From the IMG/VR virus record IMGVR_UViG_3300042865_000182, positions 32,001 through 96,000 of that record: a DNA stretch of 64,000 bases; one strand, written 5' to 3'. The notes below the pieces were generated by a model that ran no database searches, was not told the origin of the DNA, and saw only the letters and a program-made list of their open reading frames with translations. This document shows, piece by piece, positions 7,005 to 46,800 of the stretch (position 1 is its first letter; each line of letters begins with the position of its first letter). A program made the position numbers and the translations under genes. The DNA is from a virus.

Positions 7005-7045
7005 AGACGTTACAGGTTGTTGGTTTCTGTGACAACAAGGCAATG

Positions 7046-7112: not shown

Positions 7113-7124
7113 AATAGTAATAGT

Positions 7125-8365: not shown

Positions 8366-9408
8366 TGGATTTTAATTATACTCTCCGTTACAGGCCTTTT
8401 GATCAACTCTTAGAAGATGTATCAATAGACATGAATACTTTGGCTCTTGAGAATATGATAGAGCCTCAGCAATTAATAAAAGTTGCTAAAAAGATAAATT
8501 ATGATCTAGGTCTTAGAATAAATCAAACAAGAGAAGTTATTCTTGAAGTTTGTCATAATAAAGTAAAACTACCTGATAACTTTTATACATTTAATTTTGC
8601 TTTTATATGTGGAGAGTATGAAGATCATGTTGGTTATGGCGGTATGTCTGGTGGTACTAACATTCAAGAAGTACCATACAAAGAAGCTCCATCCACAGTA
8701 GATCAGTGTGCACCACCTACAGTAAACTGTAGATCATGTAATGCTAACCCATGTAAACATACAGCAGCCTGTGATCTTAATTATCCTATAGTAGATCCAA
8801 TACCAACTGAGTATGATCCTAATAATCCTTATGGTAATACATGTGTACCACCAAGAGTATTCATGAACTGTAAAGGTGAGAAGTGGGAGCTAATCCAAAT
8901 ATTAAATACTGGGGCCACAAGAAAATATTCTAGACTTATTCCGCTAAGAATGAAAGCAAGTCAAGAAATAGAATGTGACTGTCCTAATCTATATTATGAT
9001 ACAGCAAATCAAGCTTGGATAAAAGATGGATTTTTATTTACAACATTTGAAACTGGTAAAGTATATCTTAATTATCAAGGAGCTATGGAAGATGAGGCTG
9101 GTAACTTACTTGTTCCAGATCATGATCTTCTCAATGATTATTATGAGTATGCAATAAAACAAAGACTACTTGAAAACTTATTTATGAATGGAGAAGATGT
9201 TTCTGCAAGACTACAACTTGTAGAACAAAGATTAAGGGCTGCAAGAAATCAAGCACTTAGTTTAGTAAATACTCCAAACTTTAAAGAACTAGAACAAATG
9301 TGGTGGACAAATAGAAAAGCTATGTATAATAAATATTATGACATGTTTAAAAGCTATTCTCCAAATAAAGCATTTTACGGTATTAATGGTGTATCTAGAG
9401 TATTATAA
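8365..9408 (+). CDS. Putative tail tubular/ring protein with a Cys-rich insertion
   Basis: 347 aa; 'GKVYLNYQG...LVPDH...YYEYAIK' C-terminus resembles P22 gp4-like ring proteins; synteny. Confidence 0.55.
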   Translation: MDFNYTLRYRPFDQLLEDVSIDMNTLALENMIEPQQLIKVAKKINYDLGLRINQTREVILEVCHNKVKLPDNFYTFNFAFICGEYEDHVGYGGMSGGTNIQEVPYKEAPSTVDQCAPPTVNCRSCNANPCKHTAACDLNYPIVDPIPTEYDPNNPYGNTCVPPRVFMNCKGEKWELIQILNTGATRKYSRLIPLRMKASQEIECDCPNLYYDTANQAWIKDGFLFTTFETGKVYLNYQGAMEDEAGNLLVPDHDLLNDYYEYAIKQRLLENLFMNGEDVSARLQLVEQRLRAARNQALSLVNTPNFKELEQMWWTNRKAMYNKYYDMFKSYSPNKAFYGINGVSRVL

Positions 9409-16321: not shown

Positions 16322-16340
16322 TTTAAAATTTAGTATATTT
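16297..16340 (+). promoter_or_regulatory. Palindrome TAAAC-N7-GTTTA plus TAGTATATTT element
   Basis: 17/19 identical to 22470-22488, with identical spacing to a downstream TA-rich box. Confidence 0.5.
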
Positions 16341-16356
16341 AATTATAAGCAATAGC

Positions 16357-32100: not shown

Positions 32101-33585
32101 GCTGGATACCAAGGTTATCCTAATGAGATGAGTGATGCTCAGTCTAATATGTTATTACAACTTTCTGCAGGATTACCGGATGTTACTCCAGCTGCAGTTA
32201 AAAAAGCTGAGCAAACTCCAGATACACTTTTACAAAATGTAGAAGGAGCAGTAACAGAAAGAACCTACAATGAAGAGACAGATGCGGGAACATATATAGA
32301 TGATTTATCTAAAGATTTCCTTGAAGGTAAAAAACCTAAGTTTGAACCAGAAAAAATAAGTGAAGAAGCTTATGAAAATCTGTTTGGTGAAAATGGTTTA
32401 TTTCAAATCATGAAACAGTGGATGGATACTAATAAGTTAATCATAGTTTCTAGAGGTCTTGTTGTTTATGATAAAGATGCAAATGTTGCCGGGGAGATTG
32501 ACTACTTACTATCTGATGGTAAGAACTTCTATATAGTAGATTTAAAAACCGGTAAAAAAGATAAGTGGGATAAGTATAATGATCCAAAGAGTGAGTACTA
32601 TGGTAGTAAGATATCCAACACATTGCAACAAGCTTCTTATGTAAACTTGTTATATAATATGATTGGTATCAAAGCTATTCCAAAAATATTACCGGTAGAA
32701 TTAGAACTTAACAGAAGTAATGGTAAGATATTAAAAGCATCAAGACCAAGTTCTCCTAATGCTCTTAAAGTTGGTAAGATACTTATTGATTTACCTATTT
32801 CTCCAGAAATACAAGCAAAAATAGATGAGTTGATTCCATTAAGATCCACTCCATCAATAAGCTCAGTGCCTCTTTCTCTAAGTGTATCTAACATTGTAAA
32901 TAAAGCTGAGGGAGAACAAGTAGAGCCTACTGATTATGAAGAAGGTAGTGATGTACCAACAGGAACTCCAACTGATGCTTCTGCAAAAGTTAAAGAGTAT
33001 GAGGATAAAATAAACAAGGCTGAAGATACAGATAAGTTAGACTTTATTGAACTTCAACTTGGTATGAACTCAGTAGACATGACAGCTGATGATATTTTCC
33101 AAGTGCAGCAAATGATAGAACAGAGAAGGAATATACTTCTTTCAGGGGGGAAAGTTGTAACGCAAGAAAAATCTTGGAGTACTGGAAACCAAGTTTATAG
33201 TGAAAGTACTATATTTGTAGACAAAGGTAAGAATAGAGGTGAAGTATTTTTGGAGCCGTTTGAAACAGCAATTATTAGTAGTATTGATCCAGTTAAAGGT
33301 ACAGTCACAATAAAACCTTATGGTAAGAAAAATCAAAAGACAATTTCCATTGATATGTTAAATAAAATGTTTAAATTAAATAGTGACTTGTTTACTGGAG
33401 AAGAAGCACCTGCAGCTGAACCAGCTGGTAAAGATCTTCAAAATTTATCTAAAGAGTCTACTGATGTTGTATCAACATTACTTAATGATACTACAGAACA
33501 GGCTAGATTAGAAAGTGAAGTTTCAGATGAGAGTATTACAGTAGATAAGACAGTTGATGATTTGTTAGATGATTTAGAATGTTAA
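26167..33585 (+). CDS. Giant virion ejection protein with a C-proximal PD-(D/E)XK nuclease-like domain and an internal cassette array
   Basis: 2472 aa; Gly/Ala-rich N-terminal helices; 'AGEIDYLL...IVDLKTG...QQASY'; only Cys is the last residue. Confidence 0.7.
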   Translation: MPENIPLSNRLLSSAGINPYEQQQSNKVEPPPFLQNDISKQLNGNVQKPLTDEEYVAERGMKWLGRSLGRQDRNAQMTPYTYNAGAGSNSFYKTYRAFGQKTFDEVGFSPFKNNDEAFNAQTSFLDRFSRTIVHGFAPLFARGFVSGPKSMARMLQGDFGDDPEDARKYAEAAAIAQDTSGGVGAFFNNSLMNFGYSAAIITEAIAEELALSAMGGIGGAANLPRFFAKLGKAASGVKGFSTVVDTAAGLGKSIKSLTNVNKAREFFNAAKIEAGLETRLGKFANFFNPAENLLETGLDIAKNTKQLKGWQRFNNATFKTAGALYRDVRNINMALSEARLEGGFARNDTFDQLFNDYRSKHNGQLPSEEMRNAMMKEANEASKHSLLANTLLIYASNKITFGNVVNPKSGLSRVISKRVAEVQKMAGRTTIREFTKRTLASGKELLTPKLSTVKGIWATAKKQGVQKAVKGVIGYTKANLMEGAQEVLQEVIADTAKNYHLQAFYSQPVGEYMYTKAQLDAMKEKGFSGILGEAFEKQRSWQGLETFASGFVMGAFASPLNRALPFAQEKYMQIFKNEQYKANKDIIDNYVNRMTKSVNDTFAKNPIEFYNSRIFGLGTQTELANVIDGGDAKSSRDGKDEATIKSITDLIKMDSLNIWTDYMESLKELTTEEYAEAVGISVEEAQGHTEKLDKVINRAKEIEKTYNQYNKKFPNPIDLNDYEKGTKEYEKAEIYHTAWEEGKKNVIFYHENYKDTLTRMQSIFQSIAEEKLLGKIDPNRVQALFKDDKLAGEIQILESEVEGLRGMTDPVSKRKFKETERTLGVLKEYQQDYENFMDHFFESGMVEEVDTEGKVVRTELDNQVINKLESSFKSYMKALAKQSDDIILDDSIDDAFEKLIDYYKLGREANKLSDTVNMLNNPEGFMDHIEKTYDWMYEMWNNREEYIRDNINKQLETLKFNQLLNDMAAVGVYVDLNAFAEFKNTGVIPTEFFDNVNKRVIKKGSPLYEQVANRFQGLAVMQQILEANKPTSEKQKEELARLDAEEAAAIARLPKVSTKLVVRNIDNKEDFSLRVVNDQLSEGQSVDVTYEEDSEQKSAVFYKDANGVLRYDNEQGEPVDLKLSVKFNSGQIFEIQNRPTDEDVAEVKKQYDALRAEAAEKFIDEGIKPFTAEDIAELDAINADTPVEAMPADLKQQLVDAYDDYRERPENKNMFPASLTEEDLQNKFEIFIKSEPEALEIIEKYVKDKKLEAATTPAGEVIVPKITLPNGEVISADEATDAILDATLQRYRMLIAELSSKGDEMTDDERKNLAIYKSKANILSGYIENKRIGEMSPELKAAKAKIDLLLKEQDKIKKLKTGYDVEGEILRRVSNVIEVLKDKKYEYPRMQDIRVIFNMTIGAGGTVSDFMTQLKNAKLPGFSEDTYDALEEDIKEFMTLTSITDQDVLKLQLEGLKEDLKVEEGEFGNPERALEIRNQIAILEKQVKQEAPTTNQADIEAKRAEGTNVRGTTYKGETTEKDGLKVTEYSEFRPDGKRISKGGRIMLPAEFIEEYNITDQDYLDSLEGAAEIRVYQVRVGKDGKSSISIQGTFPEGNVEMEVGGKESIASTTTPVADIEKRTTKIISSETVEKGNKKGETRTVTQTNSVEDLQGTTVSVTEYEAKVGDTTVTLGGRKMTFKEFKEEFPLDEDYEEILGDWPDLNDDTIITVRKVKRTPSSSRFKTVVTIVSPVLGDKMDVIIKQDDAKYDAELDALEGPANQAEINAKKAELNKLKETKENLSHPYDKLTTAAEKANWIEKNTRVVRSAFKTDEEYINYYETNRNKFINAIAQGKSKVDAMLAIDSINVEYYSNPKNEKALNEDYANVLRSYAVPLALTSEQKAYTSTGKIVSLLDGVNIKIDELTKEIAELEKATTAPAVEASVSYEDLVAKSRSEVGVIGPNLSFIFFGNLQNAIKNGQVRSKEELNKIIADWNDSAGYQGYPNEMSDAQSNMLLQLSAGLPDVTPAAVKKAEQTPDTLLQNVEGAVTERTYNEETDAGTYIDDLSKDFLEGKKPKFEPEKISEEAYENLFGENGLFQIMKQWMDTNKLIIVSRGLVVYDKDANVAGEIDYLLSDGKNFYIVDLKTGKKDKWDKYNDPKSEYYGSKISNTLQQASYVNLLYNMIGIKAIPKILPVELELNRSNGKILKASRPSSPNALKVGKILIDLPISPEIQAKIDELIPLRSTPSISSVPLSLSVSNIVNKAEGEQVEPTDYEEGSDVPTGTPTDASAKVKEYEDKINKAEDTDKLDFIELQLGMNSVDMTADDIFQVQQMIEQRRNILLSGGKVVTQEKSWSTGNQVYSESTIFVDKGKNRGEVFLEPFETAIISSIDPVKGTVTIKPYGKKNQKTISIDMLNKMFKLNSDLFTGEEAPAAEPAGKDLQNLSKESTDVVSTLLNDTTEQARLESEVSDESITVDKTVDDLLDDLEC
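30647..31478 (+). repeat. Imperfect 34-nt direct repeat at cassette boundaries (30647-30680 and 31445-31478)
   Basis: ctaatcaagctgacatagaagctaagagagctga vs ctaatcaagctgagataaatgctaagaaagctga, 30/34 identical. Confidence 0.8.
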
Positions 33586-33589
33586 TACT

Positions 33590-36500
33590 ATGAAAATTAC
33601 TTGTGCCTTAAGCCAGAGTCAATCTGAAAAATTATATAAAACCATATACAAATCTTTAACTGAAGCACTAAAAGCTGAAAAACCATTCAGTGCTCAAGAG
33701 TATATGGCTAATCTTTTTGACAAGATTGCAGATAAAAAAGATGAAGATACCGCAGTTAAATTCTTGCAACAAGTCCCATCTATCATAAGAACAATAGCTG
33801 CCAAACCAGCTTTTGATAGCTTAGATATAAAGCTAGATCCTATCAAAGAGTTGAGTCTTAAGTTTAAAGATGAGACTGAAGGTTTTAATGAAGTACAAAA
33901 GTATTTCAAACCACAAGTATCACAAAGAGCTAAGTTAGCTTTAATAAGAGCTAACCAGAATAATGCATTGCTTGCAGAACAAGTAGACCCACCAACTGAA
34001 GTAAAAGATCCGGTGAGACTTAGACCTTTTAGTTCTAATGTGTCTACTATGCAGTTATTAATACCAATTAATCCTAAGGATAAAGACAAGCTTCTTAAAG
34101 AAGAAAATGACCCGGCTAAAAAAAGAATATTTTCTGCAATAGAGACAATCAAGAAAGAAGCTGTATTAAGTGACTCAACTGATGTATTATCACCTATATC
34201 TTTTCAAGGTAAGACATTAAAGTTAAAACCAATTCTATTAACAGAGTTAAGAGAAACACATGAGAATCAAATAGATAAAACTACTTTGTCTGAAGTTATA
34301 AGAGCTGGTGCTATTAAATCACAAGGAACAAATAAAGAAGGTGTTGAAGGATTAAACAGAATAGCACTTGTTATTACAGATGAAAGTGGTAACTATCTAT
34401 ACTTCAATGAAGAAGGTGAAATGGTTACTGAAGAAGAAGGTGGTGGTATTGTATATCAATTTATGCGGGATGTAAGAACTGATAATGGTGTATACAGATT
34501 AACCAATATGTATGGTTCTGAAACTAGTGTTAAGACCCCTGCAGATATTGCAGAACAAATGGGTATCACAGAAGAAGCAGCTAGAAAATTACAACAAGAA
34601 GAGTTCAAAGACTTATATAAAGTTAAAGAAGCTACATTAAAAGGTAACGGCCCGTTGTTATATTTAACTGGTTTGACTCCAGGAGTAAAACAAAGTGCTA
34701 CTCAAAAAAATATTACACTACAGAATTTAAGAAGTCTTCCTTTTGTAACTAATGCAACTTTTAAAACCATAACTCCAAAAATGATTTATGGCACTAAAGA
34801 AATTGCAACAATTACATTAAATGGACAAGAGTATAATTTAGATAGACCTAACTTACCTATTGAGTTTGCTAATGGTGAAAGACAACCGAGCCAATTAATT
34901 AGAAAAATTGCAGCAGCATTAGCAAATCCAAACATATCAAATCAAGAAAAATATGAGTATGTGTCACAATTTTTATCTGATAAAGCATCAGAATATACAA
35001 GAAGACACACACTAAGTTATGATGAAGCTACTGATACTTTAGTTTTTGGGTATAATGAGAAAACATATAAAGAGGGTAGTGGACAGAAATTATCTTTTAT
35101 AAATGAAGAACTAACAGGTAAAGAAAGCATAATAGAAGATGTTCTACTTAATGCTGCTTCAGATGATAGAGGTAACATGTATAGTGCTAAAATGACTTAT
35201 AATGCAAAAGCACTAAATGATAACCGCTACCGGGATTATGACATGGAGACTAATACTATTAGTGATGAGTTTACTCCTTACATACCATTCTTAGAAACAT
35301 TACCAAATTCAAAGGTAAAAATTAGTGAAGAGAATGCTCCAGAGTTTTATAACTCACATATAAACTTCAGCATACCAGATGAGTTTACAAAAGAAATAGA
35401 AGCAGATTTTAAAAATCCAGATCCTATTAATGTTTCAGAAACTCCAGTAGAACCTTTTGAAGACATACAAGCTAAAATAGCTGAAATAGAAACATTAGAA
35501 AAAGAAAAACAAGAACTTTTAAAAACTCAAAAAACTTATAAAGATTTACTCAATCAAAAATGGCCAATATCAAAATACTTAAAAAAACCAGTAGATGGTA
35601 AATTTGATGTAGTTTCTGCTACTACTACTTCAGATTTTAATTTTAAGTTTAAAGAATATGGAAAAGATTACTTTTTTGAGATTGCTTCTGCTGGCTTAAA
35701 TGCTTTTGAATATAAAGTCATAAGTGATAAAATCTCACAAACTACAGCTTTAAGTAATATTGATGAGATTATAAAACCAGTAACTACTGAATTAAATAGT
35801 CCAAAAGATGGTGATAATATAGTAACCATTAAACCAGGTGTTTTAAAAAAAGAAGGTAATGAATATATTGTTGTAACACCTGCTGAAGTTTTATATGTAA
35901 AATCTGAAGAATTAAATGAGCCTGTTGAAAAGGTTGATACAACAGAAATAGATTCTAGAATTGCTAAAGCTAAACAAGAACTAGCTGCTTTAGAACAACC
36001 TGTTGGTGATAAACAAGCTCAGATAGATGAGATAGAAAAAAGGAGAGAAAAAGCATTATTTACTCCTTGGGTATTACAAAAAAATACAACAGATGTTGTT
36101 ATATTAAATAAAAGAGAAAGAGGTAAACAGATTATTGATGCGGCAGTTAAGTCTGGTAATTCTAATCTTATTTTAAAATTAATTGACTTAACATCAGAAG
36201 GTAGAAGTGCAGAAACAATCTCAAAGGAAACTGGTTTTAATGAAGATCAGGTAAGGGAAATAAGAGAATATTTAGGAGCTTTAACACCAGGAGGTTTTGG
36301 TATAAGTGGTGCAGAAACTGAAAATGAACAAGAAGATCTTGAAAGATTTAATGCTTGGAAACAAAGTATAAAAGAGATCAATGCTAAAGCTAAAGAAGAA
36401 CTAGATGCTTTAGAGCAAGCTCCTGTAGAACAAAAATGGGAATGGCCTCCAATTACACAGGATGATTCAATAAACAATGCAACAGCACCAGATAATACAA

Positions 36501-39500
36501 CTGATCCTACTGATGACTTCAGTGATTTTATGTTTAGAAAAGGAGCAGATCTAAATGGAGTTACAGAAGAACAAATAAAAGCTGCTGAAGAATGGTGGAA
36601 TAGCTCTCCACTGTCTAAATACTTAGATTTTAAAACTATGGTAAACATAGTTAACTCTGATGTATATGCTAGATTTATAGGTTATGCTTCTGTTCTTAAT
36701 GGTAAATATGGTGGTATTGAAATAAGTAGAACTGGTAGTATGGTTGATGTTTACCATGAAGCATGGCATGCATTCTCCCAAATATTTTTGACTAAAGAAC
36801 AAAGAGAAAAACTGTATAAAGAGATTGCTAAACAGCCGGGAACATTTACCTTACTAGACGGTACTACAGTAGCTTTTAAAGATGCAAATTATTTGCAACT
36901 AGAAGAGTATTTAGCAGAAGACTTTAGATCTTATGGTATTGATCAATCAACTAAAAAAGGTCAACCTACAAGAAACACTTTGTTTAGAAAAATATTAAAC
37001 TTTATTAGAGACTTATTCTCTTCAAGAAGCACTAAAGATAGATTGTTTAAAGAACTATACTTTGCAAAAAGTAATCCTAAGTTCTTAAAAAAATACTCTC
37101 CAAATATAGACACTACATCTTTTAAACAACTTAACAGAGGTGTAGTAAGTTTAACAGACCCAACTATAGATGCTCTTAATAGACAAGATGCTGAGCTTAT
37201 AAGCAATAGTATTGATTCATATATATCTGAGATTATTGATGCTGCAGCAAATGCAAGAGGTAATAAAAGTGGTAGTATCTCTATGTTACTTGGAGATAAA
37301 AATAAACAAGCTTTCTATACAAGAGTAAGAAAAGACTTTGAAACTAAGTTAGCTAATGCAAGGACAAGTTATGAAGCAATTCAGAATGATCCAGAGAAAG
37401 CTATGGATGCTGCAAAACTGCTTAATAAAATAAGAATATTTCAAGCAGCTTTAGATAATTTTGGTGATGCAAAAGGCGGTCTTGTAAAATATCATTTAGA
37501 AAATACTACATTTAATTTATTAAGACAAAAGTATATTGAAGTTGAAGAAGAAGTTGAAACTGAGACTCCGGTAGAAAACAATGTAGAAGATTCTATTAGT
37601 CAAACTTCTACACCAGAAGAATCTCAACCTGAATCAGTAATAAAAGACAGTAAGATTGGTAAAAAGTCTTTACTTGATTTAGCTAGCAAAGAAACAGTTT
37701 ACATACTTAAGAGTTTGCATAAACTTGAAAATGGTAAACCTGTTTATAATGAGTTAGGTTATAAAGAACTTGCAAACTTTACTCAGTCTTGGAATAATTT
37801 AATGCGTGCTGTTAATGGTGAAAAGAATCCAGAGAAAATTTATGAGAATATAAAACAAGCTGGTCTTGAGGTATATCCTGAATTTAAACAGTTATTAAAC
37901 AGCAAGTTACCAAAACCATCTGAAATTATTAAAGCAGATAATGTTAATGATAAAATTTCTCAAAATAAATTATTGACTAACTTCTGGCAAGATGTACAAA
38001 AAACAAGAGTTACATATTTGCAAACTACAATATTTGAGAATGGTATAGCTGAAGTTACTAAAGCTTCAATTGAAACTGCAAGTCTTGCAAATAAGTTTGA
38101 GGCTAAGTTTAAAGGAGATCTAACAAATGATTATGTTGTAAGATCAACTGAAAACAATATACCAATGCTTAACATGGATAAGATTGTTGAAGACTTTGGT
38201 AAAGATGGTGTTTTAATAACTGATAAATCATTTCAGTTTGCAAGAGCTATAGGCTTATATCTTGATGATTTAAGAATGATCAAGAATGAACTTAAAAAAG
38301 ACCAAAGATCAATCCAGGAGTATGGTCTTCCATATATTTATAAAACAATAAGTGATATAAATAAGGCAAGCAAAAAACAAAACTTAAGTTCAGAAGGTAT
38401 AGAAGCTATCACAGCCTTTAGACTAAATCCTATAAGGGAACTAATGAAAGGTATTCCGGAATCTGTTCTTGGTAAAGAAGTTTCTCAAAAAAATAAGATA
38501 GATAAAATACTAGGTTTACAAGCTAAGTATGGTGTTGACTCTTCAAACTTTGCAGTATTAAATGCAGAAAGAAATCTTGTGTTTGAGCATATTGAAGATC
38601 ACTCAGTAAGTATGATTGTATTTGCTTTGAACAAAGCAACAAATATGAAAGAGTTGTGGACTGAGGGTAGTGAGTTTGAATACTTAAGCTATCTGAATCC
38701 TAAAATTAATTCATTTACTAATAGATCACAGACTATAAATTCTCTTTTTGATATTGCATCAGACATGGAAAAAAGAGTTGGCAGATCATTGCAGTTGTTT
38801 GTAAACTCTGGTACTCAGTTAGAAAATGGTGATGGAACTAACACAACTTCATTAGACGCTCATGGTAAGTTCTTGCAAGAGCTACACAGCATGCTTAAAG
38901 GTGGTGTACAAGAATTTATGAGACATGCCTCTAAGTCTTCATCATTTGGAGCTAGAGTAGAAGGTGGTGTTATAGGTGGTGTTGGTAAAGGTTCTGATAC
39001 TAGACTTTGGGTTGACTTAGATAAGTTTGCATTAGGAACAGCAAACAACTATCTTACTAAAACTCATATGATACCTTATATAGCTGCAGAGCTAGAAAGA
39101 ATCAATAAGTTTAAAAGTAATAAAGATCTGTTTAAAAAGTATGCTGGGTATAACAGACCTATGCCTGATGGTACTATGGCCGGTGAAAACTTTACAGCAT
39201 TTGATAATGTACTCACTAAAGAAACAAAGGATGAGATACTTGAGAAAGTAACTGATCCTAATATGAGATTAGAAGACTATCTTAAAACAGATCCTGAACT
39301 TGCAAAGAAAATAGCAAATGATGTAGATGCTTATTTTGAATTTCAAACAAATGATCTTTTAGACTTTTATGAGGAAGCTGAATACATGAGCCCAGATCTT
39401 TTAGAAAGATTAAGATTGTTTAATTTATCGGAAGATGAAGCTACCAAAGTATTAATGAAAGCTTATGCAGTAAATGCATGGGTGCATAATTTTGAAATGG

Positions 39501-42500
39501 GTAATTTATTTTATGGAGATTTGGTTCAGTATAATCATGAGAAAGAAGAACTTCATAAAAGAAATACAGGGTCAACTTCTGGCGGTTTAAAATTCAGAAC
39601 AGATGCTGCTATAAAAGCACTACTTACTGATATAAATAGTAAGGTGTCATATGCTGCTACATTACCTGGTATGGAAACACTTACATACACTGGTAAATTT
39701 AATACTGCAATTCTTCAGGATATAGAAAGAAACTCTGTATATGTTAAGCAAATAGAAGAAGCTTTAAGAAAAGACTATGAAGAAAGATTTGCTAACAGCA
39801 AAATGCCTAAAGATAAAATACAAGCAGAAATTGATAGAAGAGTTCAAAAAGAAGTTGCCAAGTATAAGGGAATGGAGGAAGGAGATGGACAAGGTTGGAT
39901 TACTTTTGATGCATATAGGTCACTTAAAATGGCATCAGGTCAATGGAGTGATGTACAAGAAGAGCTTTTCAAAAAAGTAATAAATAATGAGCCTGTAAAA
40001 GCATCAGATATTGTAGAGATGTTTCCTGCATATAAGCTTCAAAACTATGGTCACTTAGCAGATACAGCTTTACCAGTAATGGCTATGCATAAATTTGCAT
40101 TAGCTCCTATGATACCAACAATGATAAAAGGATCTGACTTGGAAAATCTTCACATGCAAATGATGAAGAATAATATACAGTATGTTACATTCCAAACAGG
40201 TTCTAAAGTAGGTAGTGTTACTTCAGAAGTTAATAGTAAAGGTAAAGCAGTTGCTGATAAAATTTATGCAGATGAAGGACAAAAGTCTTTATTAAGCAGT
40301 ATTAAGTTTACTCCTAATACTATATATCTTGAGTATCTTAAAGATGTAACTCAAGTTCCGACATCTTTCAAAGGTAAAACAGTATTTGCAACTCAGTTAA
40401 GAAAGCTTATTCTAAGCAACCTATATGACCGTGGAATTCTAGATAAACATTCAGGTCTAGTAAAAGACTATGAAAATACAGTAGATGAATATGGTAATCT
40501 ACTAAAAATGGAGTTACTCAATGATATAGGCTATGAATATAAAGATGGCAAATACATTGGTAACTTTACTGAATTTTTAAAAGTTATACAAGCTGAATTA
40601 AATAGAAGGGATCTACCTGAACATCATGTTGAGTTTGTTAATGCAAATCCAGATAACTCATTAAAGACAGATTTATCCTTACATCTTAAATCAGATGATA
40701 TAGAAAAGATTCTTGTAGCTTTAATGGAGAAAAGACTTGTTAGACAAAAGATTAAAGGTGAAGCTTTAGTTCAAGTATCTAGTGCTATGACCAATGGGTT
40801 ATGGGACAATCAAGTTAAGTTTGATAAAGCAAATGAAGATGAGGTAAGAAAATTCATGGGTAGTAATAACTTACCTTTTTACAATCCTACAGCAGATGGT
40901 ACATCAGCAATGAAAGTTGCTATTGCTTTACAAGGTGATTTTGTAAACTTATTAAATGCAAAACATAATGATGGTGAACCAATAGGTACAAGAGAGAGAC
41001 TTAATGAGATGATTAAGGATGATAAATGGATGGCAGAAAATGGTAAATCTGTTAGTTTATCAGCTGTAAGGATTCCAGTACAAGGTCTTAACTCTATGGA
41101 GTACATGCAAGTGTGGGAGTTCCTAGATCCAGCAGCAGGTAATATTATCATACCTCCATCTGAGATTGTAGCTAAATCTGGAGCTGACTTTGACGTTGAT
41201 AAACTTACTACATTTATGCCAGCTATTTCTAAAGATGGTAAGTTTATAGAATCTGAGCTTGATAATGAAGCTATCAAAAGATTGATATCAGATAATAAAG
41301 AAACTCCTGAAGGGAAAGCTATGATATCAAGAGTTATAAGTCAACAAAAAGCAGCTCTTGAGAATAAGCTAATCACAAGCATAAATAATATTCTTAGACT
41401 TCCAGAAAACTATGCGGCATTAGTAAGACCAAATGATACTTACTTACTTAAGGATGATGTAGCTGATGTACTTGAAGATAAAGTTACAGACTACAACAGA
41501 TTTAATAATTATCATGGTGAGCCTCAAAGACCGGGAGCAAAAGCAAAAAGATCTATAAGTCCAACAAGAACTTTAGAACCATTGTATAATTTACATAAGC
41601 ATGATGCAAACATGATTGGTAAAGCTGTTCTTGGTCTTGTTGCTATTTATAATGCATTACATCCAATATATAATTCACTTGATGCTAAAATGCCAAAACA
41701 GTATTTAGATACTTATTATGATAAAGGTTTAGGTAAATATGTAGAAGGAAAGAATCCAATATCCTCAAGAATGTTTATGCCTCATAATAAAACTGCAGAA
41801 GGTAACATATCTTTATCTGATATTTATACTGCAGATGGTGTAGACTTAATTTCAGATTTATACTCTCAGTTGATTAATGGTGCTGTGGATGTTGAAAAAG
41901 ATGCATGGATCTTCTTTATTCAAGGTAACATGGAGTTAGCTCCTATGCTTTTGACAATGTTTAAGGCCGGAGTTCCAAGAGAATATGCAATCAAGTTCTT
42001 ATCACAACCAATGATTAGAGAATATGCTAAAGAGTTAAGACTACTTGGTGGCTCATATGCAGATCTTGTTGCAGATCCACTTGAGGATACTAAAACAGGT
42101 AAAAATAAAAGAGCTGCAATCAGTGTATTAGAAAGATTTGGTGTTATAAATGCACCATCTTATCTAAAATCAGATCTTAAAACTCATATGGCATTATCTG
42201 CACTTACAAAAAAATCTGGTGTTTTAAATGAAGAGGGTCAATTTGATGTGGCTTTATTAGATAAAATGTTAGAAGAAGATGTGAGTACTGATACATATAA
42301 AAATCAACAGCTTGCTGTATTTTTACATTTTCTTGAAATGCAGAATCAGTTCTCTGGCTTCCAAGATTTATTAAGACTTTCAAATCCAGACACTACAACT
42401 TCTAAGACTACACAAGAGATATTACTAAGAAAGACTTTGCTTAATGATATAATGAAGAACTCTAAAGTAGATCCTTCACTAGTTTCAAAACTTACAAATG

Positions 42501-43837
42501 AGTCTATTCTTGGGACATTTTATGATAATGAAATTATAACACAGTTGATAGAACCATTATTCCCACTAAAGAATAATCCAACTGTAACTAAAGCTATCAT
42601 AACATTATTAACTAAGAAAGCTTCAGAAGTAAAAAATATATTTGGTTATGGGGATGACGGTAAAAGAATGTTTATTAGTCAATATAAAAATGGATTAGTA
42701 AATTATCTTTTCCAGAATGCCATGTATAATTATACTAGGTCTGATAATAATTTATTAGATATTCCATCAGAGCTTATTGATAAATACTTTACTGGTGATG
42801 TCTTCTTCCAAAACTTAGATTACTCTTTTGCTGATGATATTCTTACTCTTATAGAACAGAACCCAAGCTTAAAAGAAAAATATAATATACTGTATCAATT
42901 AGCTAAACCAGAATTAAAAGAGGGTCAACAGATACTTACATTGAATGACAATAAGCTTTTAAAGAGTGGTGCATTGGCTGAAAGCTATTATACTAACTTG
43001 AAAGAACTTGCGGATCCCAATGTTAAAAAATCATCTGATCCAGAAAAGAATCTTTACATAAGCAATATGTTCAAGCTGCTTCCATTGATGGCAATATATC
43101 AGAATGGAGTAGGCTTTAGTAAGTATGGGTTTAATGAAGCATTACCATTTGATGACTTCTTAGCTATAATGCAACCAGTCTCTGCAGACTTTATAGATAA
43201 CAAGAATAAAAACACTGAGTTATTAAATGTATTCAATGGTATAAAAGAACCTAAGAATAGATTCTTCAGAAACTTTGTACAAATAAGACCAGAAGATGTA
43301 GTGATAAGAACTGAAGCTCCAATACAAACTCCAGGAAAAACAATAACTTATACACCAAAAGGACAGAAAACTCAGACTTATACAATCAGAGGAAATCAAA
43401 TCTTTAATAGTGCTGAGTTAGAAGTATTTAAAGGAGATAGTGTAGATAGAAACAAAATCTTTGCAAATCTTGCAGTATCTGAAGGCCGAGCAGTTGTTGT
43501 AGAGCACAACGGATCTAAATATGTGGTGAACAATAGAAATCAAATTATATCTGGAGACACTGGTAAAATGATGCAATGGCCAGAAAACAATGGTGATAGA
43601 GTTGCAATACTTAAAAAAGCTGAAGCTAAATTTAAACCAACTGAATTAGATGTTACAAGTGATACTGTTAAAGAAGCAGAAGAAACACCAACACCTGCTG
43701 CATCTAACATAAATGCAAGAACTTTTGTATTAAATAGTACAGAATTCCAGTCTTGGATTAAGGGTGAATTATCAAAAAACCCTAACTTAGATGTCAATAA
43801 AGCATTAGATTATTATATTAAATGTAAAGGGTTATGA
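33590..43837 (+). CDS. Virion-packaged single-chain RNA polymerase (crAss/phi14:2-type) with an N-proximal zincin domain
   Basis: 3415 aa; 'RIPVQG...SGADFDVDKL' catalytic DFDxD at 41186-41200; 'DGQGWIT', 'TQLRKLI'; HEAWH at 36755-36769. Confidence 0.85.
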   Translation: MKITCALSQSQSEKLYKTIYKSLTEALKAEKPFSAQEYMANLFDKIADKKDEDTAVKFLQQVPSIIRTIAAKPAFDSLDIKLDPIKELSLKFKDETEGFNEVQKYFKPQVSQRAKLALIRANQNNALLAEQVDPPTEVKDPVRLRPFSSNVSTMQLLIPINPKDKDKLLKEENDPAKKRIFSAIETIKKEAVLSDSTDVLSPISFQGKTLKLKPILLTELRETHENQIDKTTLSEVIRAGAIKSQGTNKEGVEGLNRIALVITDESGNYLYFNEEGEMVTEEEGGGIVYQFMRDVRTDNGVYRLTNMYGSETSVKTPADIAEQMGITEEAARKLQQEEFKDLYKVKEATLKGNGPLLYLTGLTPGVKQSATQKNITLQNLRSLPFVTNATFKTITPKMIYGTKEIATITLNGQEYNLDRPNLPIEFANGERQPSQLIRKIAAALANPNISNQEKYEYVSQFLSDKASEYTRRHTLSYDEATDTLVFGYNEKTYKEGSGQKLSFINEELTGKESIIEDVLLNAASDDRGNMYSAKMTYNAKALNDNRYRDYDMETNTISDEFTPYIPFLETLPNSKVKISEENAPEFYNSHINFSIPDEFTKEIEADFKNPDPINVSETPVEPFEDIQAKIAEIETLEKEKQELLKTQKTYKDLLNQKWPISKYLKKPVDGKFDVVSATTTSDFNFKFKEYGKDYFFEIASAGLNAFEYKVISDKISQTTALSNIDEIIKPVTTELNSPKDGDNIVTIKPGVLKKEGNEYIVVTPAEVLYVKSEELNEPVEKVDTTEIDSRIAKAKQELAALEQPVGDKQAQIDEIEKRREKALFTPWVLQKNTTDVVILNKRERGKQIIDAAVKSGNSNLILKLIDLTSEGRSAETISKETGFNEDQVREIREYLGALTPGGFGISGAETENEQEDLERFNAWKQSIKEINAKAKEELDALEQAPVEQKWEWPPITQDDSINNATAPDNTTDPTDDFSDFMFRKGADLNGVTEEQIKAAEEWWNSSPLSKYLDFKTMVNIVNSDVYARFIGYASVLNGKYGGIEISRTGSMVDVYHEAWHAFSQIFLTKEQREKLYKEIAKQPGTFTLLDGTTVAFKDANYLQLEEYLAEDFRSYGIDQSTKKGQPTRNTLFRKILNFIRDLFSSRSTKDRLFKELYFAKSNPKFLKKYSPNIDTTSFKQLNRGVVSLTDPTIDALNRQDAELISNSIDSYISEIIDAAANARGNKSGSISMLLGDKNKQAFYTRVRKDFETKLANARTSYEAIQNDPEKAMDAAKLLNKIRIFQAALDNFGDAKGGLVKYHLENTTFNLLRQKYIEVEEEVETETPVENNVEDSISQTSTPEESQPESVIKDSKIGKKSLLDLASKETVYILKSLHKLENGKPVYNELGYKELANFTQSWNNLMRAVNGEKNPEKIYENIKQAGLEVYPEFKQLLNSKLPKPSEIIKADNVNDKISQNKLLTNFWQDVQKTRVTYLQTTIFENGIAEVTKASIETASLANKFEAKFKGDLTNDYVVRSTENNIPMLNMDKIVEDFGKDGVLITDKSFQFARAIGLYLDDLRMIKNELKKDQRSIQEYGLPYIYKTISDINKASKKQNLSSEGIEAITAFRLNPIRELMKGIPESVLGKEVSQKNKIDKILGLQAKYGVDSSNFAVLNAERNLVFEHIEDHSVSMIVFALNKATNMKELWTEGSEFEYLSYLNPKINSFTNRSQTINSLFDIASDMEKRVGRSLQLFVNSGTQLENGDGTNTTSLDAHGKFLQELHSMLKGGVQEFMRHASKSSSFGARVEGGVIGGVGKGSDTRLWVDLDKFALGTANNYLTKTHMIPYIAAELERINKFKSNKDLFKKYAGYNRPMPDGTMAGENFTAFDNVLTKETKDEILEKVTDPNMRLEDYLKTDPELAKKIANDVDAYFEFQTNDLLDFYEEAEYMSPDLLERLRLFNLSEDEATKVLMKAYAVNAWVHNFEMGNLFYGDLVQYNHEKEELHKRNTGSTSGGLKFRTDAAIKALLTDINSKVSYAATLPGMETLTYTGKFNTAILQDIERNSVYVKQIEEALRKDYEERFANSKMPKDKIQAEIDRRVQKEVAKYKGMEEGDGQGWITFDAYRSLKMASGQWSDVQEELFKKVINNEPVKASDIVEMFPAYKLQNYGHLADTALPVMAMHKFALAPMIPTMIKGSDLENLHMQMMKNNIQYVTFQTGSKVGSVTSEVNSKGKAVADKIYADEGQKSLLSSIKFTPNTIYLEYLKDVTQVPTSFKGKTVFATQLRKLILSNLYDRGILDKHSGLVKDYENTVDEYGNLLKMELLNDIGYEYKDGKYIGNFTEFLKVIQAELNRRDLPEHHVEFVNANPDNSLKTDLSLHLKSDDIEKILVALMEKRLVRQKIKGEALVQVSSAMTNGLWDNQVKFDKANEDEVRKFMGSNNLPFYNPTADGTSAMKVAIALQGDFVNLLNAKHNDGEPIGTRERLNEMIKDDKWMAENGKSVSLSAVRIPVQGLNSMEYMQVWEFLDPAAGNIIIPPSEIVAKSGADFDVDKLTTFMPAISKDGKFIESELDNEAIKRLISDNKETPEGKAMISRVISQQKAALENKLITSINNILRLPENYAALVRPNDTYLLKDDVADVLEDKVTDYNRFNNYHGEPQRPGAKAKRSISPTRTLEPLYNLHKHDANMIGKAVLGLVAIYNALHPIYNSLDAKMPKQYLDTYYDKGLGKYVEGKNPISSRMFMPHNKTAEGNISLSDIYTADGVDLISDLYSQLINGAVDVEKDAWIFFIQGNMELAPMLLTMFKAGVPREYAIKFLSQPMIREYAKELRLLGGSYADLVADPLEDTKTGKNKRAAISVLERFGVINAPSYLKSDLKTHMALSALTKKSGVLNEEGQFDVALLDKMLEEDVSTDTYKNQQLAVFLHFLEMQNQFSGFQDLLRLSNPDTTTSKTTQEILLRKTLLNDIMKNSKVDPSLVSKLTNESILGTFYDNEIITQLIEPLFPLKNNPTVTKAIITLLTKKASEVKNIFGYGDDGKRMFISQYKNGLVNYLFQNAMYNYTRSDNNLLDIPSELIDKYFTGDVFFQNLDYSFADDILTLIEQNPSLKEKYNILYQLAKPELKEGQQILTLNDNKLLKSGALAESYYTNLKELADPNVKKSSDPEKNLYISNMFKLLPLMAIYQNGVGFSKYGFNEALPFDDFLAIMQPVSADFIDNKNKNTELLNVFNGIKEPKNRFFRNFVQIRPEDVVIRTEAPIQTPGKTITYTPKGQKTQTYTIRGNQIFNSAELEVFKGDSVDRNKIFANLAVSEGRAVVVEHNGSKYVVNNRNQIISGDTGKMMQWPENNGDRVAILKKAEAKFKPTELDVTSDTVKEAEETPTPAASNINARTFVLNSTEFQSWIKGELSKNPNLDVNKALDYYIKCKGL
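35962..36418 (+). repeat. Imperfect 37-nt direct repeat at cassette ends (35962-35998 and 36382-36418); 18-nt core also at 31419-31436
   Basis: tgctaaagctaaacaagaactagctgctttagaacaa vs tgctaaagctaaagaagaactagatgctttagagcaa (34/37); agaactagatgctttaga exact at 31419 and 36397. Confidence 0.8.
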
Positions 43838-46800
43838 GTAAGTGTTTAAATGTACGTGACAGAAATGTTGCTAGGCTTATTAAAGATTTTGGTGAAACTA
43901 CAGTGTCTCAATTAGTTGAGTCATATTTTGGTGATGAAGTCCCAACTTATGATGAGTTTATAGCAAACAAAGATGTTAAAGAACAGCTTAATATAATTCC
44001 TATATCTAAAGTAAAAAATGAAATTGGAACTAGTTTCTCAAAACAATTAAGCACTGACAGAATAATACAACTAAAACAAGCTATCTCAAAGGCTAACAAT
44101 AAAAATTACAAAGCGGGTAATCCTGAAGTGTATATGCTTGTTAATTACCAAAGAGTTGGTGAAGCAGATTTATATACATGGGGTCTTAGAAAAGTTGCGG
44201 GAACTCTTGATGTGGAAGCTAAGATAGAAAGAGCTAAAGCAATGGTAAGAGAAAGCATTACTCCTGTTAGTGATCTAGAGAAAATGATAGAAAATGATCA
44301 GCATTTTCTACCGGAAGAAGACTTTGAAATAGGTGATGAGCAATTAGAGAATGAGAGACAAGCATTAGAGATATTAAAACAAGATGCTGAAAGAGCTGGG
44401 CTTGACTATGATGACAGATATCTTTATGAAGAAAGAGATGAGATGGTTACACCTCAACCTGTTTCCGGAATCTTTGACAGACTAAAAGACAAGTTACAAC
44501 AACTTTACCCTGCTATTACACTTGATATAAGTAACAACCCAGTATGGGAAAAAGGAACACAGATATTAAACCAGCAAGAGTATAATAATGAAGTTGCTTT
44601 TAGAATTAAAACTGTAGACTTACTTACCTCAAGAAAAGCTGATGAAGTATTTGCAAAAGGTCTTAAGAATAAATGGCCTTTGGATAAAATGCTTACTGAG
44701 CTTCAGGTACCTAAACAACAGAAACAACTTATAGATAGTGTACTAAAAGACATGCCTTACTTTGAAGGTATACCTTTTAATGCTCAAATAGCTTATGCTA
44801 TTGCTGATACTTATACTTATACTCTTGAGATTAATACTGCTACAGAAGATAAAAGACAATGGGGAGATTATTTTGATAATGATCAACCTTTTGATAATGA
44901 AAGGTTTATTTTAAATGATTCAAGATACTCAGTTAATTATGATGAAAATACTTTTTATGGTTATTTAAAAGATGGTTTAGAAATTACTAAAGAAGAATTT
45001 GATAATGCTCAAAAAGAAGCATTTGTAAAATATAAAGCTAATGAAAACACAATTAGACCAACTTCATATTATGATAACCTAACAGTTCCTGGTGGTACTA
45101 ACTATACAGAGAATGAAATAGCAACACCTGGTATAACCCCAAACATTAAAGGACATGCTCAGTTTGCTACAAAAAATGGTATAGGTTGGTTTAGAAGTGA
45201 TAATAAAGTAGATGGAACTTCTTTAGGACTAACATCTGCTCAATTAGCTAATATGCCAGAAGAAGACATTGCTAAGTTTACTGATAATACTAAAACCCGC
45301 AGAATACTAGAAGTACAATCTGATTTATTCCAGAAAGGTAGAGATAGAGAAGATTTAACTAATCAAGAATTTCCAGATGATAATGACTATGAATATGCTT
45401 ATGCAGAAAGTTTTGAGGAAGCAGAAGAACTTGAAGCAGAAGGTTGGGAAAAATTTGGGTCTACAGAAGATGGTGGTATACAATATATAAGACTTAAATC
45501 AGATGCTGTTTTAAAAAATAAAAAAGAAAGACAAACCTCATCAAATCAATTTCTACAACTCTTAAACAAAGACAACAACTGGGTAAACTTCTTTGTTAAA
45601 TCTATCATACAAGATAGTGCTAAGAAAGGTTATGAGAAAGTATTGTTTCCTAAAGGTGATACAGCTAGTAAAGTTGAAGGGCATGAAACTTTAGAAAATT
45701 ATAAGAGAGAAAAGCTAAAAAGGATTGAATTTTTAGAAGATAATAAAGAAATATTAAGTAATACTAAACCTTACAAGATAGGAGATTATTTTGATAGAGA
45801 TGTTGAAAATTTACCAGAAAATGAAAGAGTTAACTATAATAAAGTAGAAACTCAAGAAGAAGTAGATTTACTAAATGAAGAACTATCTACAGAAGGTATA
45901 GATAATGAAATTAATCAACTTAAAAAAGAACTTGCAGATATTGAAGGTCCTCAAGGATTTGGTGCTTTAAGACCTATCTATAACTTTTATGAAAATACTG
46001 TATCTAATGTTCTTAAAAAACAAGGTTATACTCCGGAAGTAATTACTGATGAGTATGGTAATCAGTGGAATCAAGTTACTGTAAATCAAGTAAGAGACTT
46101 ACAAAATATATTACTCCAAAGAAATGAGGCTGACAGAATTATAGGACAAGCTAATATAAAAGCTATGTCTGTACTTCTTGATGCAGTAAATCAAAAAGAA
46201 GATACACTTCCTCATGAATATGCTCATCACTATATTGCATGGTTTAGAAATACTCCATTAGTGCAAGAAGCTATAAGCAAATGGGGTAGTGAGGAAGCTT
46301 TAGTACAATCTATTGGAGAACAAGCTGTTGCTCAAAAAGGTGAAGCTTGGGGCTGGTGGAAAAAGTTTACAGAATGGGTAATGAGTTTATTTGATAACTT
46401 ATCTACCAAAGATAAACAAGAACTAACTAATATACTTACTGATGCATTCTTACAGGGTGTAGATTTACAGACCGGTAAAATTGGTATATCTGCAGAAAGA
46501 AGCCGTGAGCTAGCTGCACAAGCATCTGGTATTTTTAATCAGACCATAGAAGGTTCATTTGATGAACAGATACAAAATATACCAGGAGAATATAGCCAGC
46601 AAGCTATAGATACTGAGTTAGATAGAAGAATTGAGTCTCAGAGACAAATGGATACAGAAGAAGCTTCTGTTGATGATACCTTGAACCAACTTGATCCAGA
46701 TAATCAAAAAACAATTTTAACAGCTACAGCATTTGCTGAAAAATTAGCTGATGCAATTGGAGCAGATTATAAATTTGTATCTGAAGCAGAGGCTGAAGCT

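What the first reader, a model, noticed from the sequence alone, without database searches (positions are those of the whole stretch)
33580..43845. Giant ejection proteins have cysteines only at their facing ends: a possible head-to-tail disulfide-linked chain
Seen (manual count of the translations): the 1207-, 2472-, 3415- and 2774-aa proteins contain 0, 1, 2 and 1 Cys, four in about 9,870 aa. The 2472-aa protein ends in Cys (DDLEC*, codon 33580). The RNAP has Cys5 (MKITC, 33602) and Cys3412 (YIKCKGL*, 43823). The 2774-aa protein has Cys4 (MSKC, 43843). Every Cys lies within 5 residues of a terminus that abuts the next gene, and the free outer ends have none. The outer virion proteins of the same genome are loaded with Cys, so the depletion is specific. 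Established: crAss-like giant proteins are packaged in the head and ejected through the tail. Inference: C-terminal Cys of protein n pairs (disulfide, or a shared metal site) with N-terminal Cys of protein n+1, giving an ordered chain of about 8,660 aa that is threaded out in fixed order and 1:1:1 stoichiometry and released by reduction in the host cytoplasm, in effect a redox-cleavable polyprotein. I know of no description of this but cannot confirm novelty.
Basis: partly seen in the sequence, partly recalled or inferred. Interest (0 to 1): 0.92.

Follow-up and report, generated by a model that had tools for sequence, protein, structure and literature searches.

The report
Terminal cysteines chain crAss cargo proteins
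Three giant proteins of this freshwater crAss-like phage, with its particle-borne RNA polymerase in the middle, have no cysteine except one at each end that faces the next protein; relatives across the phage order keep this rule wherever the chain is broken, which points to untested end-to-end disulfide links joining them into one 8,661-residue thread.

Summary
ORFs 26167-33585 (A, 2472 aa), 33590-43837 (B, 3415 aa, virion RNA polymerase with DFDVD) and 43834-52158 (C, 2774 aa) hold four Cys: A's last residue, B Cys5 and Cys3412, C Cys4. The neighbouring 1207-aa protein has none. Other genes in the window have 0.2-7.8% Cys.

The rule holds across Crassvirales. It appears in 84 environmental loci, 76 gut loci, 120 RNAP homologues, phi14:2, crAss001, crAss002, cr85_1, cr271_1, cr4_1, cr118_1 and Rudgehvirus. 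The pair follows the protein break:
- a new pair appears where B is split;
- no Cys lies at the mapped fusion points;
- none flanks a group I intron or a frameshift;
- the pair persists in crAss001, where A is encoded 11.5 kb from B on the other strand.

A complex model docks A's C-terminal tail on B's N-terminus (0.74 against 0.00 for controls). Cyanophage A4 shows the same signature, and cryo-EM there shows a disulfide (PMC12002296).

The most likely reading is a set of head-to-tail inter-protein disulfides, a pseudo-polyprotein. The bond itself, the order of threading and release by reduction are untested. I found no paper describing this for crassviruses. Earlier notes from this scan report the same pattern on other genomes.

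The parts
22535..26158 (+). 1207-aa Cys-free protein directly upstream of the chain. It is probably another packaged cargo protein but is not linked, since it has no Cys.
   Evidence: 0 Cys. It sits after the muzzle gene, as gp45/gp46 do in crAss001. No Pfam or PHROG family.
26167..33585 (+). Protein A (2472 aa), counterpart of crAss001 gp47 (and, by gene position only, of phi14:2 g067). Its only Cys is the last residue.
   Evidence: Weak homology to gp47 (E 6e-7). PHROG exonuclease-like stretch at residues 2029-2139.
33580..33582 (+). TGT codon of Cys2472, the C-terminal residue of A.
   Evidence: It is the only invariant column in 56 aligned C-terminal 150-aa segments.
33590..43837 (+). Protein B (3415 aa), the virion RNA polymerase, homologue of phi14:2 gp66 and crAss001 gp50. 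Cys only at positions 5 and 3412.
   Evidence: DFDVD catalytic motif at residues 2533-2537 (window 41186-41200), aligned with DFDID of gp66.
33602..33604 (+). TGT codon of B Cys5.
   Evidence: In 56 aligned N-terminal 250-aa segments the invariant columns are M1, C5 and P63.
43823..43825 (+). TGT codon of B Cys3412 (fourth residue from the end).
   Evidence: It is the only column conserved at 90% or more in 55 aligned C-terminal segments.
43834..52158 (+). Protein C (2774 aa), counterpart of crAss001 gp49 (and, by gene position only, of phi14:2 g065). Its only Cys is Cys4. LysM domain at residues 2465-2504 (window 51226-51345).
43843..43845 (+). TGT codon of C Cys4.
   Evidence: It is the only column conserved at 90% or more (100%) in 56 aligned N-terminal segments.

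Best explanation
The three ORFs are the RNA-polymerase cargo block of a freshwater crAss-like phage: A, then B (the virion RNAP), then C. Like other proteins that must leave a capsid through the tail, they have been purged of cysteine. One cysteine is kept at every end that faces the next protein. The C-terminal tail of protein n docks on the N-terminal helices of protein n+1. Once the particle is outside the reducing cytoplasm, the two thiols close into an inter-chain disulfide. The result is a linear head-to-tail chain A-S-S-B-S-S-C of 8,661 residues. Its topology matches the single polyprotein that other crassviruses encode by fusing the same genes, so the disulfide stands in for a peptide bond wherever the polyprotein is broken. 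I infer that the chain keeps the three proteins together in the capsid and lets them pass through the tail as one thread. I also infer that the host's reducing cytoplasm can then separate them. Shown here: the Cys pattern, its conservation across the order, its co-variation with breaks and fusions, and a modelled A-B interface. Shown elsewhere: the same signature is a real disulfide in phage A4. Inferred: the bond in crassviruses, the threading and the reductive release.
For: 1. Pattern and statistics in the window.

2. Conservation in the environmental clade.
- All 84 IMG/VR loci at 33-85% identity in the RNAP core follow the rule.
- 197 distinct giant proteins total 490,797 aa and hold 269 Cys, of which 257 are terminal.
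- 120 RNAP homologues total 419,684 aa and hold 229 Cys, of which 6 are internal; 101 have exactly one N-terminal and one C-terminal Cys.

3. Other crassviruses.
- phi14:2: g067 Cys1797 (last residue), g066 Cys3 and Cys2179, g065 Cys3, and nothing else.
- crAss001: gp47 C-2; gp50 N5, C-8 and one internal Cys; gp49 N5. cr85_1 is alike.
- 76 gut Intestiviridae-like loci, crAss002, cr271_1 and Rudgehvirus: A always has Cys at C-1. The fused B-C protein starts with Cys at N3-N5 in most; in the rest the first-ATG call puts it at residue 17-35, and for crAss002 an in-frame Met (M33) restores MSC. This holds although these proteins tolerate 3-22 internal Cys.
- Suoliviridae cr4_1 and cr118_1: the fused A-B protein ends with Cys at C-3, and C starts MIC as its only Cys.

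4. The pair tracks the protein break, not the gene junction.
- In L029, L033, L036 and L060 the C-terminal module of B is a separate protein X of 242-655 aa. X has exactly Cys3 and a last-residue Cys, and the shortened B has a new C-terminal Cys. Unsplit relatives such as L025 have no Cys in that region. That makes six Cys at three junctions, so the Cys act as pairs, not as one 4-Cys site.
- There is no Cys at the mapped B-C fusion point of crAss002 or the A-B fusion point of cr118_1.
- There is none at the exon ends of a group I intron in the cr108_1 RNAP gene, and none at a frameshift in L015.
- In crAss001 and cr85_1, A lies on the other strand, about 11.5 kb from B's start in crAss001, and both still keep their Cys.
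- Spacing between the genes varies from overlap to 266 nt, and both TGT and TGC are used.
- A conserved domain lies at the C-end of A in crAss001 but at residues 1040-1314 of B in the window. The break has moved and the pair moved with it.

5. The Cys is the only conserved residue in otherwise fast-evolving termini. No conserved His, Asp or Glu lies nearby that could complete a metal site.

6. Complex prediction with A's last 150 aa and B's first 250 aa, using my own alignments.
- Score 0.74 against 0.00 for the best of 3 controls. That mark was reached by 58 of 80 solved complexes and 2 of 110 mismatched pairs.
- The three runs share at least 87% of contacts, and the partner's pLDDT is at least 71.
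- The interface covers A residues 98-150, including 147-150, and B residues 1 and 3-18, so both Cys lie in it.
- The model supports binding but does not show it. PDB holds no solved homologue of phi14:2 g067 or g065 (the positional counterparts of A and C), only gp66 alone, 6VR4, so recall of a solved crAss complex is unlikely.

7. Experimental precedent. In cyanopodophage A4, cryo-EM shows the C-terminal helix of gp27 inserted in a cleft of gp26 and a disulfide between gp27 Cys1715 and gp26 Cys5 (PMC12002296). I recounted on Anabaena phage A-4L: gp27 (1717 aa) and gp26 (1114 aa) each have exactly one Cys, those two.

8. Context.
- crAss001 cargo proteins must partly unfold to pass the tail, and their order of exit is proposed to depend on their mutual interactions (PMC10172136).
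- In some crass-like phages the three proteins are one polyprotein (10.1101/2020.03.07.982082).
- This phage occurs in lake and fresh water, an oxidising habitat.
Against: - There is no chemical evidence for a disulfide in any crassvirus.
- Neither the crAss001 virion paper nor the gp66 paper mentions cargo cysteines.
- The cargo was not resolved in the crAss001 maps.
- The cytoplasm where virions assemble is reducing, so the bond would have to form late. The phage encodes no thioredoxin-fold or Erv1-type enzyme that I could find.
- Gut crassviruses live in an anoxic habitat yet keep the pairs.
- The complex tool gives no coordinates, so the S-S distance is unknown. Only the A|B junction was modelled.
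- Which Cys pairs with which is inferred from counting, gene order and the split cases. It was not observed.
- Threading as one chain and release by reduction rest on analogy.
Confidence: 0.55

Rival explanations
1. The disulfides exist, but they are static staples of a folded, ordered cargo assembly inside the capsid, like the A4 pre-ejectosome. They would stabilise the stored complex or fix its stoichiometry. The proteins would not travel as one thread, and reduction would have no release role.
For: This is how the A4 authors describe the gp27-gp26 bond: it 'further stabilises' a helix-in-cleft interface. The modelled A-B contact is a sizeable folded interface of about 100 confident contacts, not just two tails.
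Against: A staple could sit anywhere in an interface. Here it is always within 0-9 residues of a C-terminus and at residue 3-6 of an N-terminus. It is interchangeable with a peptide bond in lineages that fuse the genes. That points to linear continuity as the selected property.
Confidence: 0.2
2. The facing cysteines are joined by something other than a disulfide. Candidates are a bridging metal ion or another thiol chemistry, for example a thioester-type or ligation-like step that makes a covalent link of another kind.
For: Pairwise facing Cys would also suit a bridging ligand. C-type proteins are reported to carry a zincin-like domain.
Against: There is one Cys per chain and no conserved His, Asp, Glu or second Cys near either terminus, so a stable metal site lacks ligands. 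Six Cys at three junctions in the split lineages exclude a single 4-Cys cluster. No intein-like or ligase fold is evident at the short overhangs. The one solved example of this signature is a plain disulfide.
Confidence: 0.1
3. Each terminal cysteine acts on its own and does not pair with the facing one. It might anchor to another virion part, be modified, or act as a redox sensor. In that case the head-to-tail look would be coincidental.
For: No direct evidence of pairing exists. crAss001 tails do use disulfides between structural proteins.
Against: The outer ends never carry a Cys. The numbers of N-terminal and C-terminal Cys are always equal. New Cys arise two at a time at the two ends created by a split, and there is none at the mapped fusion points. 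The model puts both Cys in one interface.
Confidence: 0.07
4. The cysteine codons are a by-product of nucleotide signals at gene junctions (translational coupling, start or stop context) or of chance.
For: In the window the genes abut (4-nt gap, ATGA overlap).
Against: The pair persists when the genes are about 11.5 kb apart on opposite strands. It persists with gaps from -32 to +266 nt, with both TGT and TGC, and at variable residue positions. Chance is excluded.
Confidence: 0.01

Closest known systems
Cyanopodophage A4 (Anabaena phage A-4L) ejection proteins gp27 and gp26, pre-ejectosome (PNAS 2025, PMC12002296)
   Same: These are two adjacent, otherwise Cys-free giant ejection proteins. The upstream one has its single Cys three residues from the C-terminus (Cys1715 of 1717). 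The downstream one has its single Cys at position 5. The C-terminal helix of one docks into the N-terminal region of the next, and cryo-EM shows the disulfide.
   Different: I found no detectable sequence homology to the crAss termini (hhalign probability 0.2%). A4 has one link, not two or three, and no RNA polymerase in the chain. The bond was described as a stabiliser of a pentameric ring, not as a rule that follows gene breaks.
RNA-polymerase cargo block of cultured crassviruses: phi14:2 g067-g066-g065 (gp66 = PDB 6VR4) and crAss001 gp47-gp50-gp49
   Same: B is homologous, with the shared DFDxD motif. A and C are weakly homologous to crAss001 gp47 and gp49. The genomic context is the same, after the muzzle and ring genes. 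The proteins are found in virions by mass spectrometry. The terminal-Cys pattern is the same.
   Different: The window's proteins are much longer (B 3415 against 2180-2412 aa). The A|B break lies at a different place relative to a shared domain. The Cys pattern is not mentioned in either paper.
Cys-free ejection operon of N4-like phages (N4 gp50-52, DEV gp71-73; PMC11445570)
   Same: A giant virion RNAP and its partner ejection proteins show strong, conserved suppression of cysteine. The published explanation is passage through the oxidising periplasm.
   Different: Those proteins have essentially no Cys at all and no terminal pairs. Their RNAP is reported to be of another type.
Fused polyprotein forms of the same block in other crassviruses (10.1101/2020.03.07.982082)
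   Same: The modules and their order are the same. The chain proposed here has the topology of that polyprotein.
   Different: A peptide bond takes the place of the Cys pair. The fused gut forms tolerate internal Cys.

Membership tests
Crassvirales virion RNAP cargo block (A-B-C) | B is homologous to gp66/gp50 and carries the DFDxD catalytic motif. | tested here: met
   tblastn and BLASTP give 22-27% identity to phi14:2 g066, crAss001 gp50 and crAss002 gp33. DFDVD at residues 2533-2537 aligns with DFDID at 1361 of g066.
Crassvirales virion RNAP cargo block (A-B-C) | Flanking giant genes are homologous to gp47/g067 and gp49/g065. | tested here: inconclusive
   win_A against gp47 gives E 6e-7. 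win_C against gp49 gives E 7e-4. There is no direct hit to g067 or g065. Synteny is clear.
Crassvirales virion RNAP cargo block (A-B-C) | The block lies in the crassvirus virion module, downstream of the tail ring and muzzle genes. | tested here: met
   Pfam CrAss_Ring_1 at 8365-9408 and crAss_MUZ at 9411-14804.
Crassvirales virion RNAP cargo block (A-B-C) | The proteins are packaged in the virion and delivered to the host. | not testable with these tools
   This is known by mass spectrometry for phi14:2 and crAss001 only.
A4-type disulfide-linked ejection protein pair | The upstream protein's only Cys is near its C-terminus, the downstream protein's only Cys is near residue 5, and both are otherwise Cys-free. 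| tested here: met
   Window. A-4L.
A4-type disulfide-linked ejection protein pair | Sequence homology to gp27/gp26. | tested here: not met
   hhalign probability 0.2% for both termini. The resemblance is in how it works, not in family membership.
A4-type disulfide-linked ejection protein pair | The C-terminal segment of one protein docks on the N-terminal domain of the next. | tested here: inconclusive
   Modelled only: score 0.74 against 0.00 for the best control. A model supports binding but does not show it.
A4-type disulfide-linked ejection protein pair | The disulfide is observed in the particle. | not testable with these tools
   It needs gels, mass spectrometry or a structure.
Cys-suppressed ejected proteins (N4-like) | Near-absence of Cys conserved across homologues. 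| tested here: met
   6 internal Cys in 419,684 aa of RNAP homologues. 12 internal in 490,797 aa.

The most novel reading that the evidence does not exclude
Across the order Crassvirales, the injected RNA-polymerase cargo is a redox-cleavable pseudo-polyprotein. Wherever evolution cuts the polyprotein gene, a terminal Cys pair replaces the lost peptide bond. One covalent thread of 6,000-9,000 residues would then be pulled through the tail in a fixed order and taken apart by the host's reducing cytoplasm. This would be a general way for podophage-like viruses to order and meter protein delivery.
Probability: 0.4. Interest if true: 0.85.

Novelty: new variant of a known kind. Interest (0 to 1): 0.8.

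Why it matters
Crassviruses are among the most abundant viruses of the human gut and are common in water. How they deliver megadaltons of protein, including their RNA polymerase, through a narrow tail is an open question.

A simple sequence rule turns that question into direct experiments: one cysteine pair at each break of the cargo polyprotein, and no cysteine at the fusion points I could map. The experiments can be done on phages that are already cultured (phi14:2, crAss001, Rudgehvirus).

The rule also gives annotators a practical test:
- It corrects start codons, as for crAss002 gp33.
- It separates real gene splits from introns and frameshifts.
- It predicts which packaged proteins travel together.

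Together with phage A4, it suggests that terminal disulfide coupling of ejection proteins arose more than once.

Tried and rejected
- Megablast of the region against phage records gave no match.
- PHROGs and Pfam gave no family for B. Its identity came from tblastn.
Fusions were found through phage records instead.
- Apparent exceptions dissolved on inspection.
  - The L015 'split without Cys' is a frameshift: the same query coordinate lies on both sides.
  - The L036 'missing N-terminal Cys' is a frameshift just after MVNC.
  - The 'internal' Cys at positions 17-35 in L026 and in crAss002-like proteins most likely come from first-ATG start calls; in-frame Mets that restore the usual position were confirmed for L026 and crAss002 gp33.
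- Homology between the A4 gp26/gp27 ends and the crAss ends was not found.
- A phage-encoded thioredoxin or Erv1/ALR sulfhydryl oxidase in the 107-kb genome was not found. The Erv1 search also matched none of the control genomes, so it says little.
- A single 4-Cys metal cluster joining all three proteins is rejected, because four-protein chains carry six Cys.
- A nucleotide-level junction artefact is rejected by the crAss001 and cr85_1 gene arrangement.
- The B|C junction could not be modelled because only one complex job is allowed.
Full report
**What is in the window.**
The plus strand carries a crassvirus virion module. It holds Pfam CrAss_Ring_1 (8365-9408) and the muzzle protein (9411-14804). 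Four further ORFs follow, and then three giant ORFs:
- A: 26167-33585, 2472 aa.
- B: 33590-43837, 3415 aa.
- C: 43834-52158, 2774 aa.

B is the virion RNA polymerase. It matches phi14:2 g066, crAss001 gp50 and crAss002 gp33 at 22-27% identity. It carries DFDVD at residues 2533-2537, aligned with DFDID of gp66. A and C match crAss001 gp47 and gp49 weakly. The genome is a 107,394-base virus record. Near-identical DNA is found in lake-water and freshwater metagenomes from many studies.

**The observation.**
- The 1207-aa protein (22535-26158) has no Cys.
- A has only its last residue.
- B has Cys5 and Cys3412.
- C has Cys4.
- The outer ends carry none.

Neighbouring virion proteins (71-9408) have 1.0-7.8% Cys, and five of the seven have 3.1-7.8%. 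The minus-strand genes have about 1%. TGY triplets are common out of frame in the same genes: 35-206 per gene, against 1-2 in frame. Chance placement of four Cys at the four facing ends has a probability of about 3e-12.

**Conservation.**
Two scans of IMG/VR with the RNAP core returned 84 loci at 33-85% identity. In all of them, every junction inside the fetched DNA has a Cys at 0-9 residues from the upstream C-terminus and at residue 3-6 of the downstream N-terminus. The outer ends, where complete, have none.
- 197 distinct giant proteins (490,797 aa) hold 269 Cys, of which 257 are terminal.
- 120 RNAP homologues from the large protein collection (419,684 aa) hold 229 Cys, of which 6 are internal. 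The 12 that lack the N-terminal Cys include the shortest entries and may be truncated calls; I did not check them.
- In alignments of the four terminal regions, the Cys is the only conserved column or nearly so. Invariant columns are C150 in A's tail and M1, C5 and P63 in B's head. Only the Cys reaches 90% conservation in B's tail and C's head.

**The rule holds in cultured and classified crassviruses.**
- phi14:2 is perfect: g067 last residue, g066 Cys3 and Cys2179, g065 Cys3.
- crAss001 has gp47 C-2; gp50 N5, C-8 and one internal Cys; gp49 N5. cr85_1 is alike.
- In Intestiviridae (crAss002, cr271_1, Rudgehvirus and 76 IMG/VR loci) B and C are fused. A always has Cys at C-1. The fused protein starts with Cys at residue 3-5 in most loci. 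In the rest, the first-ATG call puts that Cys at residue 17-35, which I read as a start miscall. These proteins tolerate 3-22 internal Cys. The annotated start of crAss002 gp33 is probably 32 codons too early, since M33 gives MSC.
- In Suoliviridae (cr4_1, cr118_1) A and B are fused. The fused protein ends with Cys at C-3, and C begins MIC as its only Cys.

**Natural experiments.**
1. Split. In L029, L033, L036 and L060 a protein X of 242-655 aa lies between B and C. It has exactly two Cys, residue 3 and the last residue, and the shortened B ends with a new Cys. The C-terminal part of X is homologous to the C-terminal part of the unsplit B of L025 (E 1e-8 to 3e-13). That unsplit B has no internal Cys. 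All other Cys were already paired, so the two new ones must pair with each other. Six Cys at three junctions also rules out a single four-Cys site.
2. Fusion. No Cys lies at the mapped fusion point of crAss002 gp33 (about 2430-2780) or of cr118_1 (about 1785-1870).
3. Breaks in the DNA that are not breaks in the protein carry no pair. A group I intron (Rfam, 80 bits) sits in the cr108_1 RNAP gene, with exons contiguous on gp50 at 1483/1484. A frameshift sits in L015.
4. Gene rearrangement. In crAss001 and cr85_1, A is on the opposite strand. In crAss001 its end lies about 11.5 kb from B's start. Both proteins still keep their Cys. This removes any explanation based on junction nucleotides. So do the variable spacers (-32 to +266 nt) and the use of both Cys codons.
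5. The break has moved. A domain lies near the C-end of crAss001 gp47 (about 2100-2320). It corresponds to residues 1040-1314 of the window's B and to internal parts of the fused proteins of cr118_1, cr4_1 and cr108_1.

**Physical plausibility.**
I ran a complex prediction of A's last 150 residues with B's first 250, each given as an alignment of 56 rows.
- The score was 0.74 against 0.00 for the best of three controls. In calibration that mark was reached by 58 of 80 solved complexes and 2 of 110 mismatched pairs.
- The three runs share at least 87% of contacts, and the partner's pLDDT is at least 71.
- The confident interface covers A residues 98-150, including 147-150, and B residues 1, 3-18, 20-25, 42-68 and 93-100. 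Both cysteines lie in it.
- This supports binding and does not show it. No coordinates were available to measure the sulfur distance.

PDB holds gp66 alone (6VR4) and nothing for phi14:2 g067 or g065.

**Literature.**
- Cys suppression in ejected proteins is published for N4-like phages. The suggested reason is passage through the oxidising periplasm (PMC11445570).
- The crAss001 atlas reports disulfides in the tail. It argues that cargo must partly unfold, and that the order of exit depends on packing and mutual interactions. It says nothing about cargo cysteines (PMC10172136).
- The gp66 preprint notes polyprotein fusions and does not mention cysteine.
- A lead from earlier notes of this scan took me to PMC12002296. 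In cyanophage A4, cryo-EM shows the C-terminal helix of gp27 in a cleft of gp26, with a Cys1715-Cys5 disulfide.
- I recounted on the A-4L genome. Each of these two proteins has exactly one Cys, those two. I found no sequence homology to the crAss termini.

So the signature has been shown once to be a disulfide, in an apparently unrelated system.

**Reading.**
The best-supported mechanism is a head-to-tail chain held by one disulfide per junction. It is functionally interchangeable with the peptide bond of the fused forms.
- The coupling is well supported.
- The bond chemistry is likely.
- Threading as one unit and reductive release are inference.

The main rival keeps the disulfide but sees it only as a staple of a stored, folded complex.

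This scan had already noted the same pattern on other genomes. I tested the claims independently here.

Noticed in passing
window 33590-43837 and homologues P0002-P0120: RNAP homologues vary from about 2,270 to 4,330 aa. Many carry different precomputed Pfam domains: DUF1768/YbiA-NADAR PF08719, 2OG-Fe(II) oxygenase PF13532, ART-PolyVal PF18760, AAA_33 PF13671, PF25176 and helicase domains. The giant RNAP seems to serve as a carrier for swappable injected enzyme modules.
   Followed up: no
window 51226-51345 (C residues 2465-2504): A LysM peptidoglycan-binding domain lies near the C-terminus of protein C (Pfam 24.7 bits, cut-off 20.9). It suggests that part of C acts at the cell wall.
   Followed up: no
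window 32251-32583 (A residues 2029-2139): A weak PHROG exonuclease-like match (phrog_298, E 1.3e-6) lies in protein A. The same region is the part homologous to crAss001 gp47.
   Followed up: no
window 71-6749: Four consecutive proteins have 3.1-7.8% Cys (62 Cys in 792 aa for ORF 2487-4865) and match no Pfam family. They are probably disulfide-rich outer tail or fibre proteins.
   Followed up: partly
window 36707-37531 (B residues 1040-1314): This domain is shared with the C-terminal end of crAss001 gp47 and with internal parts of the fused A-B proteins of cr118_1, cr4_1 and cr108_1. The A|B boundary lies at different places in different lineages.
   Followed up: partly
L165 18078-18396 (uncultured phage cr108_1): A group I intron (RF00028, 80 bits, E 8e-21) interrupts the RNAP gene next to the DFDxD catalytic motif. 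The record annotates the two exons as separate proteins.
   Followed up: yes
L018 17109-29846 (crAss002 gp33): The annotated start is probably 32 codons too far upstream. Met33 gives MSC, matching the N-terminal Cys3 of most relatives.
   Followed up: partly
L015 about 12976 and L036 about 6700-6890: Frameshifts in two IMG/VR contigs break the RNAP ORF. These may be assembly errors or real mutations.
   Followed up: partly
L166 (uncultured phage cr4_1): The giant genes contain 7-38 in-frame stops under table 11, which suggests stop-codon recoding in this Suoliviridae genome.
   Followed up: no
window 14804-19824: Two virion-module proteins have their only two Cys close together: 505 aa with Cys247 and Cys254, and 1155 aa with Cys226 and Cys229. 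These could be small redox or metal motifs.
   Followed up: no
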